A DNA stretch of 64,000 bases from Thermoanaerobaculia bacterium. Lineage in GTDB: Bacteria; Acidobacteriota; Thermoanaerobaculia; Multivoradales; Multivoraceae. A program made the translations under genes and the position numbers. The notes under the pieces are model-generated. The model saw only the letters and a program-made list of their open reading frames with translations. It did no database searches and was not told the origin of the DNA. Below, piece after piece: positions 33,722 through 39,427 of the stretch; position 1 is the first letter of the stretch; every line of letters starts with the position of its first letter. The DNA lies in NCBI GenBank assembly GCA_963666565.1, contig OY762911.1, positions 768,001 to 832,000 on the forward strand, written 5' to 3'.

Positions 33722-35295
33722 CAGTGCTTGAAGTGGCGCCGGCCGGTGAGCGCCATCGCGATGCCGTGCTCGTCGGCGGCGGCGACGATCTCGTCGTCGC
33801 GCACCGAGCCGCCCGGCTGGACGATGGCGGCGACGCCGGCGGCGGCCAGGGTGTCGACGCCGTCGCGGAAGGGGAAGAAGGCGTCGGAGGCCGCCACGGT
33901 CCCGGCGAGGTCCAGTTGCGCCTTGTCGAGCGCGATTCGGCAAGAGTCGACGCGGCTCATCTGGCCGGCGCCGATGCCCACCGTCTGGTGCTCGTTCGCG
34001 ACCACGATCGCGTTCGACTTCGTCGCCCGGCAGACCTTCCACGCGAAGTCGAGGGTGCGGAGCTGGCCCGCGTCCGGCCGCGCCCGGGTCGGACAGGTCC
34101 ACTCGGCCGGATCCTCCGGCGCGGCGTCGATCTGCTGGCCCAGGAAGCCGCCCTCGATCGCGCGCAGCTCCCACTGGCCGGCGGCGGGCGTGAAGGGCGG
34201 ACACTCGAGCAGGCGCAGGTTCTTCTTGCGGGCGAGCCGCTCCAGCGCGGCCGGCTCGTAGGACGGCGCCGTCACCACCTCCACGAAGAGCTTGGCCATC
34301 GCTTCGGCGAGAGCGGCGTCGAAGGGCCGGTTGACCGCGACGATCGAACCGAACGCGGACACCGGATCGCAGGCCAGCGCGCGCTCGTAGGCCTCGACCA
34401 GCGAGCCGCCGCGCCCGACGCCGCAGGGGTTGTTGTGCTTGACGATGACCACGGCCGGGTCTTCCTTCGGGCCGTCGAACAGGGCGGACAGCTTGCGCGC
34501 CGCGTCGGCGTCCAGGAGGTTGTTCCAGGAGAGCTCCTTGCCCTGGAGCTGGCGGAAGCCGCCGAGCACGCCGCCGGCACCCGCCTGCCGGTAGACGGCG
34601 GCCGCCTGGTGCGGGTTCTCGCCGTAACGCGGGCGCAGCACCTGCTCCAGCTCCAGGCGCACCGTGGCGGGCAGCGCGCCACTGGGTGCGCGGGTCTTCC
34701 GACCCGCATCCGCGCCGTCTGCGAGCCACTCCGTGATCGCGGCGTCGTAGCTGCGCGTGTGCCGGAACGCCTTCAGCGCCAGCCCGCGGCGGACTTCCTC
34801 GGACAGGCCGCCGTTCTCCAGCGCGGCCAGGACGACCGGGTAGTCGGACGGATCGACCACGACGGCGACGTTGGCGAAGTTCTTCGCCGCCGCCCGGACC
34901 ATGCTGGGACCGCCGATGTCGATCATCTCGACCGTGCCGTCCACCGACGCGTCCGGCGCCGCGGCGGCGTCCGCGAACGGATACAGGTTGACCGCCACCA
35001 GGTCGATGGGCGGAATCGCGTGCTCCTCCAGCTCCTCGCGGTGCTCCGTGCGCCGGCGGTCGGCCAGGATGCCGCCGAAGATCCGCGGATGCAGGCTCTT
35101 GACCCGCCCGTGGAGAATCTCCGGGTGCCCGGTGATCTCGGACACGGCCGTCACCGGCACGCCGTGCTCCGCGAGCCTCCGCGCCGTGCCGCCGGTGGAG
35201 ACGATCTGGACGCCCAGCTTCGCCAGACCCGCGCCCAGATCCTCCAGGCCCGTCTTGTCGAAGACCGAGACGAGTGCGCGGCGGACGGGGAGCAT
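33721..35295 (-). CDS. purH: Bifunctional AICAR transformylase / IMP cyclohydrolase
   Basis: ALVSVFDK, STGGT, GRVKSLHP, IDIGGP, RYGENPHQ, KHNNPCG, SDAFFPF and RHFKH. Confidence 0.97.
   Translation of the reverse strand: MLPVRRALVSVFDKTGLEDLGAGLAKLGVQIVSTGGTARRLAEHGVPVTAVSEITGHPEILHGRVKSLHPRIFGGILADRRRTEHREELEEHAIPPIDLVAVNLYPFADAAAAPDASVDGTVEMIDIGGPSMVRAAAKNFANVAVVVDPSDYPVVLAALENGGLSEEVRRGLALKAFRHTRSYDAAITEWLADGADAGRKTRAPSGALPATVRLELEQVLRPRYGENPHQAAAVYRQAGAGGVLGGFRQLQGKELSWNNLLDADAARKLSALFDGPKEDPAVVIVKHNNPCGVGRGGSLVEAYERALACDPVSAFGSIVAVNRPFDAALAEAMAKLFVEVVTAPSYEPAALERLARKKNLRLLECPPFTPAAGQWELRAIEGGFLGQQIDAAPEDPAEWTCPTRARPDAGQLRTLDFAWKVCRATKSNAIVVANEHQTVGIGAGQMSRVDSCRIALDKAQLDLAGTVAASDAFFPFRDGVDTLAAAGVAAIVQPGGSVRDDEIVAAADEHGIAMALTGRRHFKH
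34681..34712. repeat. REP-like copy in frame inside purH
   Basis: ACTGGGTGCGCGGGTCTTCCGACCCGCATCCG; encodes [10 protein letters not shown]. Confidence 0.9.
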
Positions 35296-35333
35296 CGGAG
35301 GCGGCGCAGCGTAGCACGCGGGCGCCTCTTCCG

Positions 35334-35364
35334 TTGACGGGATCCATCGGTCCCTGCTAGAACT
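35334..35364 (+). promoter_or_regulatory. Putative sigma70 promoter of tRNA-Phe
   Basis: TTGACG, 18-nt spacer, then TAGAAC preceded by TGC. Confidence 0.45.
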
Positions 35365-35390
35365 CCCTTCCCTCAGCCGCGTGCCGGAAC

Positions 35391-35466
35391 GCCCAGGTAG
35401 CTCAGTTGGTAGAGCACCTGACTGAAAATCAGGGTGTCGGTGGTTCGAATCCGCCCCTGGGCACCA
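35391..35466 (+). tRNA. tRNA-Phe(GAA)
   Basis: GCCCAGGTAGCTCAG...CCTGA-CTGAAAA-TCAGG...GGTTCGAATCC...CCA. Confidence 0.97.
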
Positions 35467-35569
35467 TCCGCGCAGGTTCCTTGCCGCCTGCGGCGGCAGC
35501 GGGTCAGAAGACCCGCGCATGTATGGTCCGCCCCGCTTGTGCAAGGGCACTTTCCGGAGTTCCGGCGAG

Positions 35570-35780
35570 AGAGGTGTCGTTGCTTGCATGTATTCGGCCT
35601 GTTGTTGGGCGTCTCGTGGTTTCGAGCTCCCTGGCCCCGATGGAATACGCGCGCGTCGTCTCTTCTGTACACCCAGACGGCCTGTTGAATGGCCCTGCGC
35701 GGGTTCAGGCTCTCGACGCGCCGGTCCGACCTGTTTCGCCATCGCTCCGTTGTGTCCTCGCAACGACTTGGTGGGGCAAT
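35570..35780 (-). ncRNA. Putative bridge/seek RNA of the IS1111-type element (boundaries approximate)
   Basis: Non-coding end downstream of the transposase contains ACCCGCGCA, CTGGGTG, ATTCCATCG and ATACATG (minus strand), matching the target and donor junctions. Confidence 0.75.
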
Positions 35781-35816
35781 CCTCCTTGGTTGATTCGATG
35801 TGGATCGAGCCGCCTG

Positions 35817-36875
35817 CTACGCGGCCCGAGAGACCTTCTGCCGAGACCCGGCGAGGCGGTCGTCGCGGTACAGCTCGCCGCGGCGAAGCACCGCCCAGGC
35901 GATGCGGCCCAGCTTGTTGGCCAGTGCCACCGTGGCGACGTTCGGCCCCCGGCGCCGCTTGACGTCGAGCGCCCAGCCCTTCAGCCGCGTTCGCTCGCCC
36001 TTCGCCGCCGTGCGCAGGACCGCCCGCGCACCGTGGATCAGGAGCGAGCGCAGGTAACGGTCGCCGCGCTTGCTGATCCCGCGCAGCACCGTGCGACCCC
36101 CGGTCGAGTCCTGACGCGGCACCAAGCCCATCCAGGCCGACATCTGACGACCGCTGCTGAAAGCCCAGCCGTTGCCCACCGCCGCCACGATCGCCGTCGC
36201 CACGATCGGACCGATGCCCGGAATCGACATCAGACGCTGGCAGTGAGGGTTCTCCTTCGACTCCCGCACCAGCATCGCGGTCAGGTCCTCGACCTCCTTG
36301 TGGACCTGCATCAGAGCCTCGTACTGCATCCACAGCAGCGCGCGAAACTGACCCGGCAGCTCGCGCTCCGCGTCGCTCGCGATGTCGGGCACCGCCCGCA
36401 TGACCACCGCCCGGCCCTGACGCAGCACGATCCCGTACTCGCCCAGGAATCCCCGCAACTGGTTCACCAACTGCGTGCGACGGCGAAGCGCCGCCTCCCG
36501 GCTCCGATGAACCTGCTGAAGAGCACGCTGCTCCTTCGTCTTGTACGGCACGAAACGCATCGTCGGACGGGACACCGCCTCGCAGATCGCCTCCGCGTCG
36601 TGGTAGTCGCTCTTGTTCGACTTCACGTAAGGCCGCACGAACTGAGGACTCATCATCCGCGCGTCGTGACCCAGAGCGCTCAGCTTCTCCACCCAGTAGT
36701 GCGCGCCGCAGCTCGCCTCCATGCCCACCAGGCACGGCTCGAGCTGCACCATCAACTCCATCAGCCCCGACGCCTTCACCTGACGCTGAAACACCACCGC
36801 GCCCGACGAGTCCATCGCGCACACCTGGAACAGGCGCTTGCCCAGATCGATACCGACTCGAGTAACCTTCTTCAT
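35817..36875 (-). CDS. IS110 family DEDD transposase/recombinase
   Basis: GIDLGK, GMEASCG, KSDYHDAEAI, SIPGIGPI, GLVPRQDSTGG and ALANKL. Confidence 0.96.
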   Translation of the reverse strand: MKKVTRVGIDLGKRLFQVCAMDSSGAVVFQRQVKASGLMELMVQLEPCLVGMEASCGAHYWVEKLSALGHDARMMSPQFVRPYVKSNKSDYHDAEAICEAVSRPTMRFVPYKTKEQRALQQVHRSREAALRRRTQLVNQLRGFLGEYGIVLRQGRAVVMRAVPDIASDAERELPGQFRALLWMQYEALMQVHKEVEDLTAMLVRESKENPHCQRLMSIPGIGPIVATAIVAAVGNGWAFSSGRQMSAWMGLVPRQDSTGGRTVLRGISKRGDRYLRSLLIHGARAVLRTAAKGERTRLKGWALDVKRRRGPNVATVALANKLGRIAWAVLRRGELYRDDRLAGSRQKVSRAA

Positions 36876-36959
36876 GGTCCGTCTCCTCCCTTGTTGGTTG
36901 GGAAAAACCCATTCTGGCCCTACAAGAGGCCGTAGAGGGCGGGGCGGACCATCCCATTA

Positions 36960-37127
36960 CCCAGTGCGGCGGCAGCGGGTCAGAAGACCCGCGCACCCAG
37001 TGCGACGGCAGCGGGTCAGAAGACCCGCGCACCCAGTGCGACGGATGCGGGCCAGAGGACCCCGCGCACCCAGGAGCGGGTCAGATGCGCACCCAGGAGC
37101 GGGTCGGGAGACCCGCGTACCCAGCCC
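36960..37127. repeat. Tandem REP-like array next to the IS
   Basis: GCGGGTCAGAAGACCCGCGCACCCAG and degenerate copies, about five. Confidence 0.88.
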
Positions 37128-37275
37128 GCTGCCCGGGGGCCGCCGGGAATCCGCAACATTTCCGCAGCAGCTTCCGAACTCCCCGGAACCGTGCCGAACG
37201 GCGGCAAGTAACGGCAAGCACGACAGTTAGCGCCGATCGGGCCCGACCGCTCCGCAACCGGCGGGATCTCTCGTC

Positions 37276-37305
37276 TTGACACGGCCTTCACGCGGCCTGT
37301 ACGTT
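37276..37305 (+). promoter_or_regulatory. Putative sigma70 promoter of the large ncRNA
   Basis: Consensus TTGACA (37276-37281), 18-nt spacer, TACGTT (37300-37305), ending 7 nt before the closing helix starts. Confidence 0.7.
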
Positions 37306-37312
37306 GTCTCGC

Positions 37313-38095
37313 GGATAGGGACTGTGACCAAGAATCGCATCCTGATCCACCGGTCCTGAGACGCGACCTTCGGACCGGAGCCCGAGAGGGGCGAAGTCAC
37401 GTTCGCGTGGTGGGCGCCCATCGACGGCGAAGGAAGGAAGGTCATGACTCGGAAGCCGGGCTCGGCGGCAGGAGCCGCCGGAAGCCGGAGACGCTGAGGC
37501 GCAAGCCGAAGAGAAACCGGATTCCAGCACGCTCCAGCCATCGAGTGGCTCCCGTGGCCGACAGCCTTCCCGGGAGCGGCGCCGAAGGGCGAAAGCCTGA
37601 CGGAGGCGCGACGGGGGAGGCGGCTTCAGGGAAACGGACGGCTGGAAGTTGCCCGGCAGCAAACGGAAGGCCGACTGCAGAACTGGAGCGCTTCGTCGGC
37701 GGACCCTACGGGGGCTTCGTCGTGAGACCCGACCAGTCGAGCGACGGAGTGCCCCGCAGGCGTCAGGCTGGCAGAAGCCAGGCTTCGGCGAGTCCCCGCG
37801 GCGGCGAGCCGCAGGGCGGCAGGCTCGGAGGCGCAAGCCGACGAGAAAGTCGTCCGACGGCAAAGGCGCGGCGGGCCGTTTTCGGCCGTCCCAGCCGAAA
37901 GGGCCGACCGTCTGAACGCAAGTTCGGCCGGAGAGCCCGGAAGGGGAAGGACGGGCGGAAGGGGATTCCGGCGGTGGTGCTCGCGCCCATGACCCAAGCC
38001 CGCCAAGCTGTAGAGGTCCAATCTGGTGCGAACGGGATGAGAGGCTGAGGTCGATTCGGGCGAAACTCCCGGAGCGGTCCCTATCCTCTTTTTTT
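37313..38095 (+). ncRNA. Candidate large structured non-coding RNA (~775 nt), family unassigned
   Basis: GGATAGGGACTG (37313-37324) pairs with CGGTCCCTATCC (38075-38086), followed by a T7 run; nested long-range helices; many GNRA/UNCG hairpins; no credible ORF. Confidence 0.75.
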
Positions 38096-38443
38096 GCCTG
38101 CACGGAACCTAGCACGACGCGACCGTAAGTGCAACCCCATCAGCAACTTGCAGGGGTCCCGCCCAGTACCTCGGCGACTGGCGGCCAGCGACGATCCGCC
38201 GCCGGCCGGCCAGCCGGGCTCGCCGCCGCTCCGACCCGGCGGCCTCCGTCCGCGGGTCCGCCGGCATCGCTGGAACGGAACGCTGTCACGAAACGGTCAG
38301 GCTATCGTCACGCACCGTGCAGAACTCTCCGTGCCAGTCTTCCCCTCCGCTCTCGAAGTCCCGGCGTCCGGCACCCAGGCGACGGCGACCGGACTTCCGG
38401 CACACGGAAAACCGGCCCCACGTAGCAGTCGAGATGCCAGCCA

Positions 38444-39427
38444 ATGCAGCGCGATAACGACGCGCCGTCGGACGCGGCGCCCCCGTCCGAAAGGGATCGC
38501 GACGCCAACGGCGAACCGCTGGGCCGCCTGCGTTTCGGCGAGTTCGAGTTCGACCCCGAGACTCTCGAACTGCGCGGCGACGCGAAGACCGTTCGGCTCC
38601 AGCCCCAGCCGGCCAGATTGCTTCTCCTTCTGATCGCCAACAAGGGGACGGTCGTCTCGCGCGACACCGTTCGCCGCCACCTCTGGCAGGACGAGATCCA
38701 CGTCGAGTTCGACCAGAGCATGAACTCCTGCGTCAAGCGCATTCGCGTCGCGCTCGGAGACAGCGCGGAAGCGCCGCTCTACATCGAGACCCTGCCGAGA
38801 CTCGGCTACCGGTTCCTCCAGCCCGTGACCGAGGTTCGTGACGACAGCCCGTTGCCCTCGGTCGAGCCGGCGCTACCCCGGTACTGGCCGCGCTCGCGAC
38901 GGGCGCCGTCCCTGCCCCTCGCCGCGGTGAGCGTGGCCATCGGGATCGTGTTGACGGTCCTGGTCTGGAACCTGCTCAACACGCGGTCCGGCGGCGCCGA
39001 CCAGCCGCCGCGCCAGGTGCTGGCGGTCCTGCCCTTCGCCGCCCTCGAGCACTGGCCCGGGGCGGAGTCCTTCCGTCAGGCGCTGGCCCAGGAGCTCATC
39101 ACCTCGCTCGCCCGGGAAGGCTCGCGAAGCGTCGCGGTCGTGGCCAGGGACGCAGCTCCCGAGCCGGAGACCAGCCCGCCGCCGCACCGCGTTCACGCCG
39201 ACTTCGTCCTCGACGGCCGCGTCCAGCACGAACAGGGTCGGCTCCGCGTCTGGGCGCACCTCCTGCTCGCGAAGGACGGAACGGTGCTGTGGACCGAGGC
39301 CTTCGACGGCGTGGAGGCCGAGATCCTCCTGTTCCAGGCCGAAGTGAGCGCCCGGATCGGCAACGCGGTCCTCGGCCGGCTGGAGCAACTCGCCGGTCAG
39401 GAGATCTCCCTGCAGCGCAGGGGCTGA
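38444..39427 (+). CDS. CadC-like winged-helix DNA-binding protein with a transmembrane segment and a TolB-N-like domain
   Basis: FGEFEFD, LQPQP..LL..L, VSRD, YIETLPRLGYRF; transmembrane segment; LAVLPF...VLDGRV...LRV..HL. Confidence 0.85.
   Translation: MQRDNDAPSDAAPPSERDRDANGEPLGRLRFGEFEFDPETLELRGDAKTVRLQPQPARLLLLLIANKGTVVSRDTVRRHLWQDEIHVEFDQSMNSCVKRIRVALGDSAEAPLYIETLPRLGYRFLQPVTEVRDDSPLPSVEPALPRYWPRSRRAPSLPLAAVSVAIGIVLTVLVWNLLNTRSGGADQPPRQVLAVLPFAALEHWPGAESFRQALAQELITSLAREGSRSVAVVARDAAPEPETSPPPHRVHADFVLDGRVQHEQGRLRVWAHLLLAKDGTVLWTEAFDGVEAEILLFQAEVSARIGNAVLGRLEQLAGQEISLQRRG

What the first reader, a model, noticed from the sequence alone, without database searches (positions are those of the whole stretch)
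35511..36964. IS1111-type bridge-RNA recombinase apparently programmed against the genome's own REP repeat
Seen: the IS splits a REP copy exactly, as ACCCGCGCA (35511-35519) | IS | CCCAG (36960-36964). Read on the minus strand, the non-coding end contains four segments in order. ACCCGCGCA (35704-35696) equals the left target half. After a GGCC hairpin, CTGGGTG (35676-35670) is complementary to the right half CACCCAG. ATTCCATCG (35646-35638) resembles the donor end ATCCCATTA, allowing wobble and one mismatch. ATACATG (35593-35587) is complementary to CATGTAT at the other junction. Established: IS110/IS1111 elements use a bridge/seek RNA with target- and donor-binding loops around a 2-nt core, and some members target REPs. 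Inference: this is an intact RNA-guided recombinase with a CA core and 14-nt target ACCCGCGCACCCAG. Dozens of such targets exist in this window alone.
Basis: partly seen in the sequence, partly recalled or inferred. Interest (0 to 1): 0.85.

Follow-up and report, generated by a model that had tools for sequence, protein, structure and literature searches.

The report
REP-targeting IS1111 element with guide RNA
This is a 1,440-bp jumping gene of a known RNA-guided kind (IS1111 type) whose built-in guide RNA matches a short repeat present hundreds of times in its host genome; it is a well-supported new member of a known family, not a new mechanism.

Summary
Window 35520-36959 is a 1,440-bp IS1111-type insertion sequence on the minus strand. 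It has a 352-aa DEDD transposase, 14-bp subterminal inverted repeats with 7-nt left and 3-nt right extensions, and a 297-nt non-coding region 3' of the transposase.

The genome holds 5 identical copies, all at the same REP position and orientation. The intact 14-mer target occurs 526 times in the genome and 29 times in the window.

The strongest evidence is natural retargeting. In a sister genome the dominant REP variant differs (0 sites of our type, 413 of the other). There the 9-nt guide differs at exactly the three matching positions, in 21 of 21 copies.

Covariation across 26 related non-coding regions supports an outer stem and an inner hairpin, with both target guides unpaired between them.

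The 3' donor segment (AUACAUG) covaries with the right IS end across families. The 5' donor segment (AUUCCAUCG) is plausible but did not beat the non-cognate control. The "CA core" is only the overlap of the two target guides: the left junction reads TA and the right TG, so no dinucleotide is duplicated.

REP-targeting IS1111 elements with seekRNAs are already published (ISPa11). No RNA data exist for this element.

The parts
35520..36959 (-). Complete IS1111-type insertion sequence, 1,440 bp
   Evidence: Five 100% identical copies lie in the genome. The boundaries come from identical ends flanked by the two REP halves.
35817..36875 (-). Transposase / bridge recombinase gene, 352 aa
   Evidence: Pfam PF01548 (E 4e-20) and PF02371 (E 8e-24) match. 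NCBIfam NF033542 'IS110 family RNA-guided transposase' scores 341 bits against a cut-off of 140. D10, E53, D90, D93 and the S257-T258-G259 motif are present and conserved in relatives.
36953..36959 (-). 7-nt left terminal extension, TAATGGG in IS orientation
   Evidence: It lies between the REP half and the left inverted repeat. The 7-nt length matches the IS1111 rule stated in PMC11187229.
36939..36952 (-). Left subterminal inverted repeat, ATGGTCCGCCCCGC
   Evidence: It is the exact 14-bp reverse complement of 35523-35536.
35523..35536 (-). Right subterminal inverted repeat, GCGGGGCGGACCAT
35520..35522 (-). 3-nt right terminal extension, ACA
35520..35816 (-). 297-nt 3' non-coding region, the presumed source of the bridge/seekRNA
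   Evidence: It lies downstream of the transposase gene, as in IS1111-type elements (PMC11187229; PMC11208160). The genome holds no solo copies of it.
35714..35721 (-). P1 outer stem, 5' strand (GCGCGUCG), which closes the target loop
   Evidence: All 8 of 8 pairs show changes on both sides across 26 sequences. RNAalifold recovered it independently.
35651..35658 (-). P1 outer stem, 3' strand (CGACGCGC)
35696..35704 (-). Target guide 1 (ACCCGCGCA), which pairs with the top strand of the right target half TGCGCGGGT
   Evidence: It is 9/9 complementary. It changes to GUCGGCGCA where the flank is TGCGCCG(A/G)C. Cognate pairing averages 7.86 of 9 against 4.70 for non-cognate.
35679..35694 (-). H1 inner hairpin, GGCC-AUUCAACA-GGCC
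   Evidence: 3 of 4 pairs show changes on both sides, for example GGUC/GACC and AGCC/GGCU.
35670..35676 (-). Target guide 2 (CUGGGUG). It has the same sense as the left target half CTGGG plus the first 2 nt of the right half, so it would pair with the bottom strand
   Evidence: It is 7/7 identical. Cognate matching averages 5.18 of 7 against 1.95 for non-cognate across families.
35637..35646 (-). Candidate donor guide 1 (A-UUCCAUCGG), facing the left-end extension
   Evidence: 7 of 9 positions pair in the fixed register, including wobbles, with a C.A mismatch. Position 3 covaries with the left end across families. The cognate versus non-cognate control did not discriminate.
35596..35636 (-). 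H2: an invariant GGCC...GGCC stem enclosing a variable hairpin, which separates the two donor segments
   Evidence: The 4 GGCC/GGCC pairs are invariant in 26 of 26 sequences, so they say nothing either way on covariation.
35586..35593 (-). Candidate donor guide 2 (AUACAUGC). It has the same sense as the right IS end ATACA plus the first 2-3 nt of the right flank
   Evidence: It is 8/8 identical to the integrated right junction. It covaries across families as AUACAUU, AUACACG, ACACACG, AUAUAGG and AGAUACG. Cognate matching averages 6.86 of 7 against 4.34.
35539..35544 (-). TTGCAC, a candidate -35 box of a junction promoter formed on circularisation
   Evidence: Joining the right end to the left end gives TTGCAC-17 nt-CATAAT. 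The -10 hexamer takes 2 nt from the right end and 4 nt from the left end. This is an inference by analogy with ISEc11.
35483..35519 (+). REP copy, the half containing the right target (in IS orientation) and the REP hairpin
36960..37130 (+). The other half of the split REP (CCCAG), followed by a tandem array of further REP copies
   Evidence: Exact target 14-mers lie at 36987 and 37023.

Best explanation
Window 35520-36959 is an intact, recently active IS1111-group member of the IS110 family.

Its 352-aa DEDD plus Ser/Thr-Gly recombinase is proposed to work with an RNA of roughly 165 nt or less, made from the 297-nt region downstream of the gene.

That RNA has an internal loop bounded by a covarying outer stem (P1) and a GGCC hairpin (H1). 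The 5' side of the loop (ACCCGCGCA) pairs with the top strand of TGCGCGGGT. The 3' side (CUGGGUG) pairs with the bottom strand of CTGGGTG. Together they specify the 14-bp site CTGGG^TGCGCGGGT (ACCCGCGCA^CCCAG on the + strand). That site covers the 5' arm of the host REP hairpin.

A second module flanks an invariant GGCC stem. It carries UUCCAUCGG facing the 7-nt left-end extension, and AUACAUGC matching the right end plus the first target bases. This is the likely donor-end recognition part.

The element would excise as a circle whose junction creates a TTGCAC-N17-CATAAT promoter. It would then insert in one orientation into another REP, without target duplication.

Shown here: the anatomy, the site specificity, guide-target covariation and stem covariation. 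Inferred: that the RNA is made and bound, the strand-exchange chemistry, the promoter, and the role of the donor segments.
For: Family hallmarks:
- Pfam PF01548 and PF02371 match.
- NCBIfam 'IS110 family RNA-guided transposase' scores 341 bits against a cut-off of 140.
- D10, E53, D90, D93 and the S-T-G motif are conserved.
- The C-terminal domain resembles the ISCro4 and IS621 recombinases in the PDB, E about 1e-9.
- There is a 14-bp subterminal inverted repeat with 7-nt and 3-nt extensions, and a 3' non-coding region of 297 nt against 84 nt at the 5' end.

Site specificity:
- 5 of 5 identical copies are flanked by (C/A)TGGG|IS|TGCGCGGGTC.
- 34 of 34 complete relatives in sister genomes have CTGGG on the left.

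Target abundance: 526 exact 14-mers in the genome, 0 for the reversed-pattern control.

Natural retargeting:
- 12 of 12 relatives flanked by TGCGCGGGT carry the guide ACCCGCGCA.
- 21 of 21 flanked by TGCGCCG(A/G)C carry GUCGGCGCA.
- A third variant, GCCCGCGCA, sits at ..GGGC..GGGT and ..GGAC flanks.
- The host of the GUCGGCGCA variant has 0 sites of our type and 413 of the other type. Our genome has 526 and 52.

Structure:
- 92.5% of cells pair in the proposed structure, against 28-44% when partners are slid.
- 11 of 16 pairs show compensatory changes.
- 0 of 500 shuffles reach the observed values.
- RNAalifold finds the same helices and leaves all four guide segments unpaired.

Cross-family test (24 representatives of 26 elements; 22 or 23 could be scored per segment), cognate against non-cognate:
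- guide 1: 7.86 against 4.70 of 9
- guide 2: 5.18 against 1.95 of 7
- donor 2: 6.86 against 4.34 of 7

The segment order (top-strand match 5' of bottom-strand match, overlapping in the target) is the order published for IS1111 seekRNAs (PMC11187229, section read).
Against: - There is no RNA evidence of any kind.
- The single-sequence minimum-free-energy fold pairs ACCC of guide 1 with GGGU of guide 2, and is not better than shuffles (z = -1.5 and -1.3).
- Donor segment 1 does not beat non-cognate pairings (6.70 against 6.14 of 9). It also carries a C.A mismatch that is conserved in two families.
- The two junctions carry different dinucleotides (TA and TG), so an IS621-style duplicated 2-nt core is not seen.
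- One relative (L059) has a right flank matching its guide only at its first three bases, TGC. L011 has one guide-target mismatch.
- In several distant single-copy relatives (L073, L074, L076, L081, L083, L097) guide 2 matches the left flank at only 2-3 of 7 positions.
- Rfam 15 has no family that matches this region.
Confidence: 0.9

Rival explanations
1. Only the target loop is RNA-guided (a seekRNA in the narrow published sense). The IS ends would be recognised by the protein through the long subterminal inverted repeats. The two 'donor' segments would be conserved for another reason, such as RNA folding, processing or protein binding.
For: - Donor segment 1 scores 6.70 of 9 with its own left end against 6.14 with other families' ends.
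- It carries a conserved C.A mismatch.
- The subterminal repeats are long (14 bp) and conserved.
- The passages I read of PMC11187229 report only target matches, and say that end recognition in IS1111 elements is unknown.
- Donor segment 2 matches the integrated junction (8 nt) better than the predicted circle junction (6 nt plus a wobble).
Against: - Donor segment 2 changes with the right-end extension in at least six lineages: ATACATG, ATACATT, ATACACG, ACACACG, ATATAGG and AGATACG.
- Position 3 of donor segment 1 is C where left-end position 7 is G, and U where it is A. The exception is one lineage (L076, L081, L083).
- The two modules have parallel layouts: a 9-nt segment, GGCC...GGCC, 2 nt, then a 7-8-nt segment.
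- PMC11208160 predicts donor-binding nucleotides in IS1111 RNAs.
Confidence: 0.25
2. The REP-like stretches in the non-coding region are a captured or decayed REP fragment. The REP would be recognised by the protein as a DNA hairpin, with no role for RNA.
For: - REPs are abundant here and form hairpins, so a fragment could be picked up by chance.
- The target overlaps the REP stem.
Against: - The two segments are in opposite senses. They are split by a covarying hairpin and overlap by 2 nt in the target, which a captured contiguous REP would not give.
- The same layout occurs in relatives whose targets are not this REP, for example L063 and L066 with 9/9 guide-flank pairing.
- The guide changes at exactly the three positions at which the sister genome's REP differs.
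Confidence: 0.03
3. The element is a now-silent relic. The anatomy is intact but it no longer moves.
For: - Only 5 of about 531 suitable sites are occupied.
- No contig in four public runs joins across the IS.
Against: - The five copies are 100% identical over 1,440 bp, with an open reading frame and all catalytic residues.
- A sister genome has at least 21 copies of its variant.
Confidence: 0.07

Closest known systems
ISPa11 (IS1111 group, Pseudomonas aeruginosa)
   Same: It is an IS1111-type element that inserts at a fixed position and orientation in host REP sequences. Its 3' non-coding region yields a seekRNA that co-purifies with the transposase. The top-strand match lies 5' of the bottom-strand match (PMC11187229).
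   Different: The host phylum is different (Acidobacteriota, class Thermoanaerobaculia, by the titles of related records). The REP and guide sequences are different. Nothing has been tested experimentally here.
ISEc11 / ISXne4 (IS1111 group)
   Same: They are a natural pair in which the scaffold is conserved while the target-matching bases and the target differ. They have the 7-nt left extension, a junction promoter on the circle, and a requirement for target-derived flanks for excision.
   Different: Here the retargeting is finer: 3 of 9 guide positions, with transposases about 79-80% identical to ours. It follows a REP variant that dominates in the sister genome.
IS621 (IS110 group, E. coli) and its bridge RNA
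   Same: It has a DEDD plus Ser recombinase and is REP-targeting. Its RNA has separate target and donor loops, each reading both DNA strands. Solved structures exist (8wt6), with similarity to our C-terminal domain at E 2e-9.
   Different: The IS621 RNA lies in the left end, 5' of the gene, and the guide order is reversed. Its inverted repeats are only 2-3 bp. It has a CT core duplicated at both junctions. Here the RNA lies 3' of the gene, the inverted repeats are 14 bp, and the junctions carry TA and TG.
ISPpu9 / ISPpu10 (Pseudomonas putida)
   Same: They are IS110-family elements that occupy REP sequences. ISPpu9 has a small RNA gene downstream of the transposase (search listing and abstract of PMC12288879; the ISPpu10 title in a reference list).
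   Different: ISPpu9 has extra solo copies of its small RNA gene. No solo copy of the non-coding region exists in this genome.

Membership tests
IS110 family, IS1111 group | DEDD (RuvC-like) N-terminal domain plus the PF02371 C-terminal domain | tested here: met
   PF01548 matches at E 4e-20 and PF02371 at E 8e-24. NF033542 scores 341 bits against a cut-off of 140.
IS110 family, IS1111 group | Catalytic D-E-D-D residues and the GL-P----S/T-G motif | tested here: met
   D10, E53, D90 and D93 are present, with GLVPRQDSTG at residues 250-259. E53 is conserved in 14 of 16 aligned relatives, D90 and D93 in 15 of 16, and D10 in every relative whose extracted reading frame covers that block. The motif wording is from PMC11187229. 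Assigning these residues as the catalytic ones is by analogy, not by experiment.
IS110 family, IS1111 group | Subterminal inverted repeats of about 11-13 bp or more, with terminal extensions of 7 bp (left) and 3 bp (right) | tested here: met
   There is a 14-bp perfect inverted repeat, TAATGGG on the left and ACA on the right. The rule is quoted.
IS110 family, IS1111 group | The longer non-coding region lies downstream of the transposase gene | tested here: met
   297 nt lie 3' of the gene against 84 nt 5' of it.
IS110 family, IS1111 group | Site- and orientation-specific insertion without target duplication | tested here: met
   5 of 5 own copies and 34 of 34 complete relatives are at the same position. 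Joining the flanks restores the REP with no extra bases.
IS1111-type seekRNA | Two short segments matching the top and bottom target strands, with the top-strand match 5', overlapping in the target | tested here: met
   ACCCGCGCA comes first and CUGGGUG second, with a 2-nt overlap. They covary with the flanks.
IS1111-type seekRNA | The RNA is produced, co-purifies with the transposase and is required for movement | not testable with these tools
   No RNA run was listed. This needs RIP, small-RNA sequencing and transposition assays.
Two-loop bridge RNA (IS621 model) | Target-binding internal loop closed by stems on both sides | tested here: met
   P1 and H1 are supported by covariation, and the guides are unpaired in the consensus structure.
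Two-loop bridge RNA (IS621 model) | Donor-binding loop with two guides that match the element's two ends | tested here: inconclusive
   The 3' segment covaries with the right end (6.86 against 4.34 of 7). The 5' segment does not discriminate (6.70 against 6.14 of 9).
Two-loop bridge RNA (IS621 model) | An identical core dinucleotide in donor and target, present at both junctions after insertion | tested here: not met
   The left junction reads CTGGG-TA-ATGGG and the right CATACA-TG-CGCGGG, in all own copies and relatives. Only a T is shared.
REP (repetitive extragenic palindromic) element | A short imperfect palindrome repeated hundreds of times, often in arrays | tested here: met
   There are 526 exact 14-mers, and the consensus continues into the hairpin GCGGGTC-TTCn-GACCCGC. 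Arrays have 27-28 and 36 bp spacing. I did not check that they are extragenic genome-wide.
REP (repetitive extragenic palindromic) element | Association with a RAYT (REP-associated tyrosine transposase) gene | tested here: inconclusive
   The genome has one Y1-transposase gene, outside the window, with a REP array at its 3' end. NF047646 scores 76.1 bits, just under its cut-off of 80.

The most novel reading that the evidence does not exclude
In this IS1111 lineage the RNA is tuned to the integrated junctions as much as to the circle.

Across families, the 3' donor segment reads through the right IS end into the first two target bases. Target guide 2 ends on the same two bases. The 5' donor segment keeps a conserved mismatch or wobble opposite the left end. 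One RNA would thus recognise four substrates (empty target, circle, left junction and right junction) through transition-tolerant G.U and C.A positions. The crossover would need no duplicated core.

Separately, the guide tracks whichever REP variant has expanded in each sister species. This implies ongoing co-evolution between an RNA-guided IS and the host's REP/RAYT system.
Probability: 0.3. Interest if true: 0.55.

Novelty: new member of a known kind. Interest (0 to 1): 0.35.

Why it matters
It adds a clean, compact example (a 352-aa protein plus an RNA of about 165 nt) of an IS1111-type RNA-guided recombinase from an uncultured Acidobacteriota lineage.

It comes with a natural experiment. 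Three guide variants in sister genomes each match that genome's insertion flanks. One of them matches a REP variant that is absent from our genome's type and dominant in its host. That is independent comparative support for programmability of IS1111 guides.

The set of about a dozen related elements assembled here gives position-by-position rules for where the target and end sequences are read in this subgroup. This includes the donor side, which the published IS1111 work I read leaves open.

For annotation, it explains the interruption of the REP array next to tRNA-Phe.

It does not reveal a new mechanism.

Tried and rejected
- Rfam 15 at E up to 1 over 34000-38500 found only the tRNA, plus a spurious plastid hit on its reverse strand. 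It has no bridge/seekRNA family that matches here.

- Single-sequence folding of 297 nt and 161 nt gave z-scores of -1.5 and -1.3, and paired part of guide 1 with guide 2. I reject this as the real structure. That pairing is not kept in the GUCGGCGCA variant, and the comparative structure leaves the guides unpaired.

- The look-up of sequencing runs listed no RNA holder. This says nothing on expression.

- Read laying on four contig-only runs listed no joint across 35519/36960 and no circle junction. Contigs drop rare variants, so this says nothing about excision. The word depth of the IS contig was about five times that of the flanks in three runs, but the tool states that depth is not a copy number.

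- An empty-site comparison at the orthologous locus showed that 7 sister-species loci lack the whole REP array as well as the IS. They therefore do not serve as an exact empty site. Uninterrupted REPs in the same genome do.

- I considered a 2-nt core at either TG or GT (IS orientation). Neither is duplicated at both junctions.

- I considered the conserved GGUCNGACC motif upstream of P1 as a match to the inverted repeats. I rejected this because the motif stays the same where the repeats differ.

- The first regular expression crashed after printing the counts. The counts were repeated.

- Rows dropped:
  - L046 was left out of alignment A1 because its scaffold is AT-rich and divergent.
  - L070 and L071 (contig end) and L079 (no left flank) lack some scores.
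  - Loci without both inverted repeats (16 of 50) were not used.

- Supplementary figures of PMC11187229 and PMC11208160 (seekRNA folds; the ISPa11 model in Extended Data) could not be seen. They may already show donor-side matches for IS1111 elements.
Full report
**What is there**

Window 35520-36959 is a 1,440-bp element read on the minus strand.

- The only long ORF that makes sense is 36875..35817, 352 aa.
- It matches Pfam DEDD_Tnp_IS110 (E 4e-20) and Transposase_20 (E 8e-24).
- It matches NCBIfam NF033542, 'IS110 family RNA-guided transposase', at 341 bits against a cut-off of 140.
- Its C-terminal domain resembles the solved ISCro4 (9t56) and IS621 (8wt6) recombinases at E about 1e-9.
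- D10, E53, D90, D93 and the GLVPRQDSTG motif are present, and are conserved in an alignment with 15 relatives.

In IS orientation the element starts TAATGGG-ATGGTCCGCCCCGC and ends GCGGGGCGGACCAT-ACA. That is a perfect 14-bp subterminal inverted repeat with a 7-nt left and a 3-nt right extension. This is the published IS1111 rule (PMC11187229, passage seen). The non-coding region is 84 nt upstream and 297 nt downstream of the gene, again the IS1111 arrangement.

**The observation**

The element splits a REP as ACCCGCGCA | IS | CCCAG on the + strand. Uninterrupted neighbouring copies read ACCCGCGCACCCAG.

In 200,000 shuffles of the non-coding region:
- the 9-mer occurred in 0.58%
- CTGGGTG occurred in 0.92%
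- ATACATG occurred in 0.72%
- both target segments occurred together in 13 shuffles
- all three occurred in none

The window holds 29 exact 14-mer targets. The genome holds 526, plus 328 with one mismatch. The reversed-pattern control gave 0.

**Other copies**

The genome has five copies, 100% identical over 1,440 bp. All are flanked in IS orientation by (C/A)TGGG | IS | TGCGCGGGTC. There are no solo copies of the non-coding region. With this query there are no other IS110-family genes.

In related MAG genomes (titles give Thermoanaerobaculia / Candidatus Multivorans), 50 loci encode a relative. Of these, 34 have both ends, and all 34 have CTGGG on the left.

**Natural retargeting**

This is the decisive result.

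- The 12 relatives flanked on the right by TGCGCGGGT all carry ACCCGCGCA.
- The 21 flanked by TGCGCCGGC (14) or TGCGCCGAC (7) all carry GUCGGCGCA. This is complementary to the GAC form, and pairs with the GGC form through one G.U wobble.
- A third variant, GCCCGCGCA, is found with ..GGGC..GGGT and ..GGAC flanks.

The rest of the scaffold is conserved.

Pattern counts show that the guide follows the host's repeat:

| Genome | Type A sites (CTGGGTGCGCGGGT) | Type B sites (CTGGGTGCGCCGRC) |
|---|---|---|
| Ours (G000) | 526 | 52 |
| Host of the GUCGGCGCA variant (G186) | 0 | 413 |

Exceptions: L011 has one guide-target mismatch. L059 has a right flank that matches its guide only at its first three bases, TGC.

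**RNA structure**

Single-sequence folds are uninformative (z = -1.5 and -1.3), and they pair part of the two target guides with each other.

I therefore collected more distant IS1111-type relatives from 35 of 401 sampled genomes of the phylum. I defined their ends by comparing copies and by their inverted repeats. I then aligned 26 non-coding segments.

On my proposed structure:
- 92.5% of cells pair, against 28-44% when partners are slid by 1-3 columns.
- 11 of 16 pairs show changes on both sides.
- 0 of 500 shuffles reach the observed values.
- P1 has 8 of 8 covarying pairs, and H1 has 3 of 4.
- The GGCC/GGCC stem of the second module never varies, so it is uninformative.

RNAalifold, run without my structure, returns the same three helices and leaves all four guide segments unpaired.

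**Guides against DNA across families**

I used registers fixed by the helices and by the TGG/CCA of the inverted repeats. Cognate pairs were compared with pairs taken from other elements:

| Segment | Cognate | Non-cognate |
|---|---|---|
| Guide 1 against right flank (of 9) | 7.86 | 4.70 |
| Guide 2 against left flank plus 2 nt (of 7) | 5.18 | 1.95 |
| Donor segment 2 against right end plus 2 nt of flank (of 7) | 6.86 | 4.34 |
| Donor segment 1 against left extension (of 9) | 6.70 | 6.14 |

Donor segment 1 therefore does not discriminate. Left extensions and this segment are both conserved across families, so the test has little power there.

One position does covary. Segment position 3 is C where the left end has G, and U where it has A. 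The exception is the L076/L081/L083 lineage.

Several distant single-copy elements match their left flank poorly (2-3 of 7).

**The 'core'**

The two target guides overlap on TG in IS orientation (CA on the + strand). Donor segment 2 ends on the same two bases.

The junctions, however, read CTGGG-TA-ATGGG and CATACA-TG-CGCGGG in every copy. The dinucleotide is therefore not duplicated as the CT of IS621 is, and only a T is shared. In the G313-type relatives not even one base is shared.

The crossover position is thus unknown. 'CA core' should be read as 'the first two bases of the right target half, read by three of the four segments'.

Donor segment 2 fits the integrated right junction (8 nt) better than the predicted circle junction. 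This is in line with the published need for target-derived flanks for IS1111 excision, but it is only an inference.

**Circle junction**

Joining the right end to the left end gives TTGCAC, 17 nt, CATAAT. The -10 hexamer is built from both ends. This is like the junction promoter described for ISEc11. It is not tested.

**Comparison with the literature**

- REP-targeting IS1111 elements with an experimentally shown seekRNA exist (ISPa11; PMC11187229, sections read).
- Natural reprogramming between relatives has been described (ISEc11 / ISXne4).

This element is therefore a new member of a known kind. What is modestly new is the within-genus tracking of REP variants, and the cross-family register of the donor-side segments.

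**Limits**

There are no RNA data. There is no evidence of excision in contig-only runs. Relatives are not independent, so the shuffle statistics overstate significance. The slid-partner and non-cognate controls are the fairer ones.

Noticed in passing
window 35391-35463 (+): A tRNA (74.4 bits, anticodon loop CUGAAAA, so Phe-GAA by my reading) lies 20 nt upstream of the REP array that holds the IS.
   Followed up: partly
window 35470-37130; loci L102-L109: In 7 sister-species loci the spacer downstream of the same tRNA lacks both the REP array and the IS, and runs straight into the conserved GAATCCGCAG... sequence. The REP array at this locus is therefore itself lineage-specific.
   Followed up: partly
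L111 (G000:C1:748944-749858, outside the window): This is the genome's single Y1-transposase gene. It has HUH-like (HIH) and YIQHNP motifs, and is RAYT-like at 76.1 bits against a cut-off of 80. A REP array of the same type overlaps and follows its 3' end. It is a likely mobiliser of the REPs that the IS targets.
   Followed up: partly
G186 (loci L017-L043, L059): The sister genome with the type B REP carries at least 21 complete copies of its IS variant, against 5 here. One copy (L059) has a right flank unrelated to the guide, possibly an off-target insertion or a later rearrangement.
   Followed up: partly
L003 (G000:C1:740364-741803): This IS copy sits between two tandem units of a longer repeat of about 77 bp that contains the REP. 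About 44 bp are identical on both flanks. Its left flank is ATGGG, not CTGGG.
   Followed up: no
L090, L093 (G309, G393): Some copies of a distant relative (36% identity) lose similarity to full copies inside the second RNA module, just before the 3' GGCC of H2. They are truncated or rearranged elements.
   Followed up: no
alignment A1, columns 43-51 (window about 35731-35723, minus strand): A conserved GGUCNGACC motif lies just 5' of stem P1. It is kept in families whose inverted repeats differ, so it is probably a protein-binding or structural feature, not an end-matching one.
   Followed up: no
window 35510-36968, run X5: A contig from a different study (labelled marine metagenome) carries a variant of the element with 21 differences and one gap over 1,459 nt. 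It has the same REP halves at both ends.
   Followed up: no
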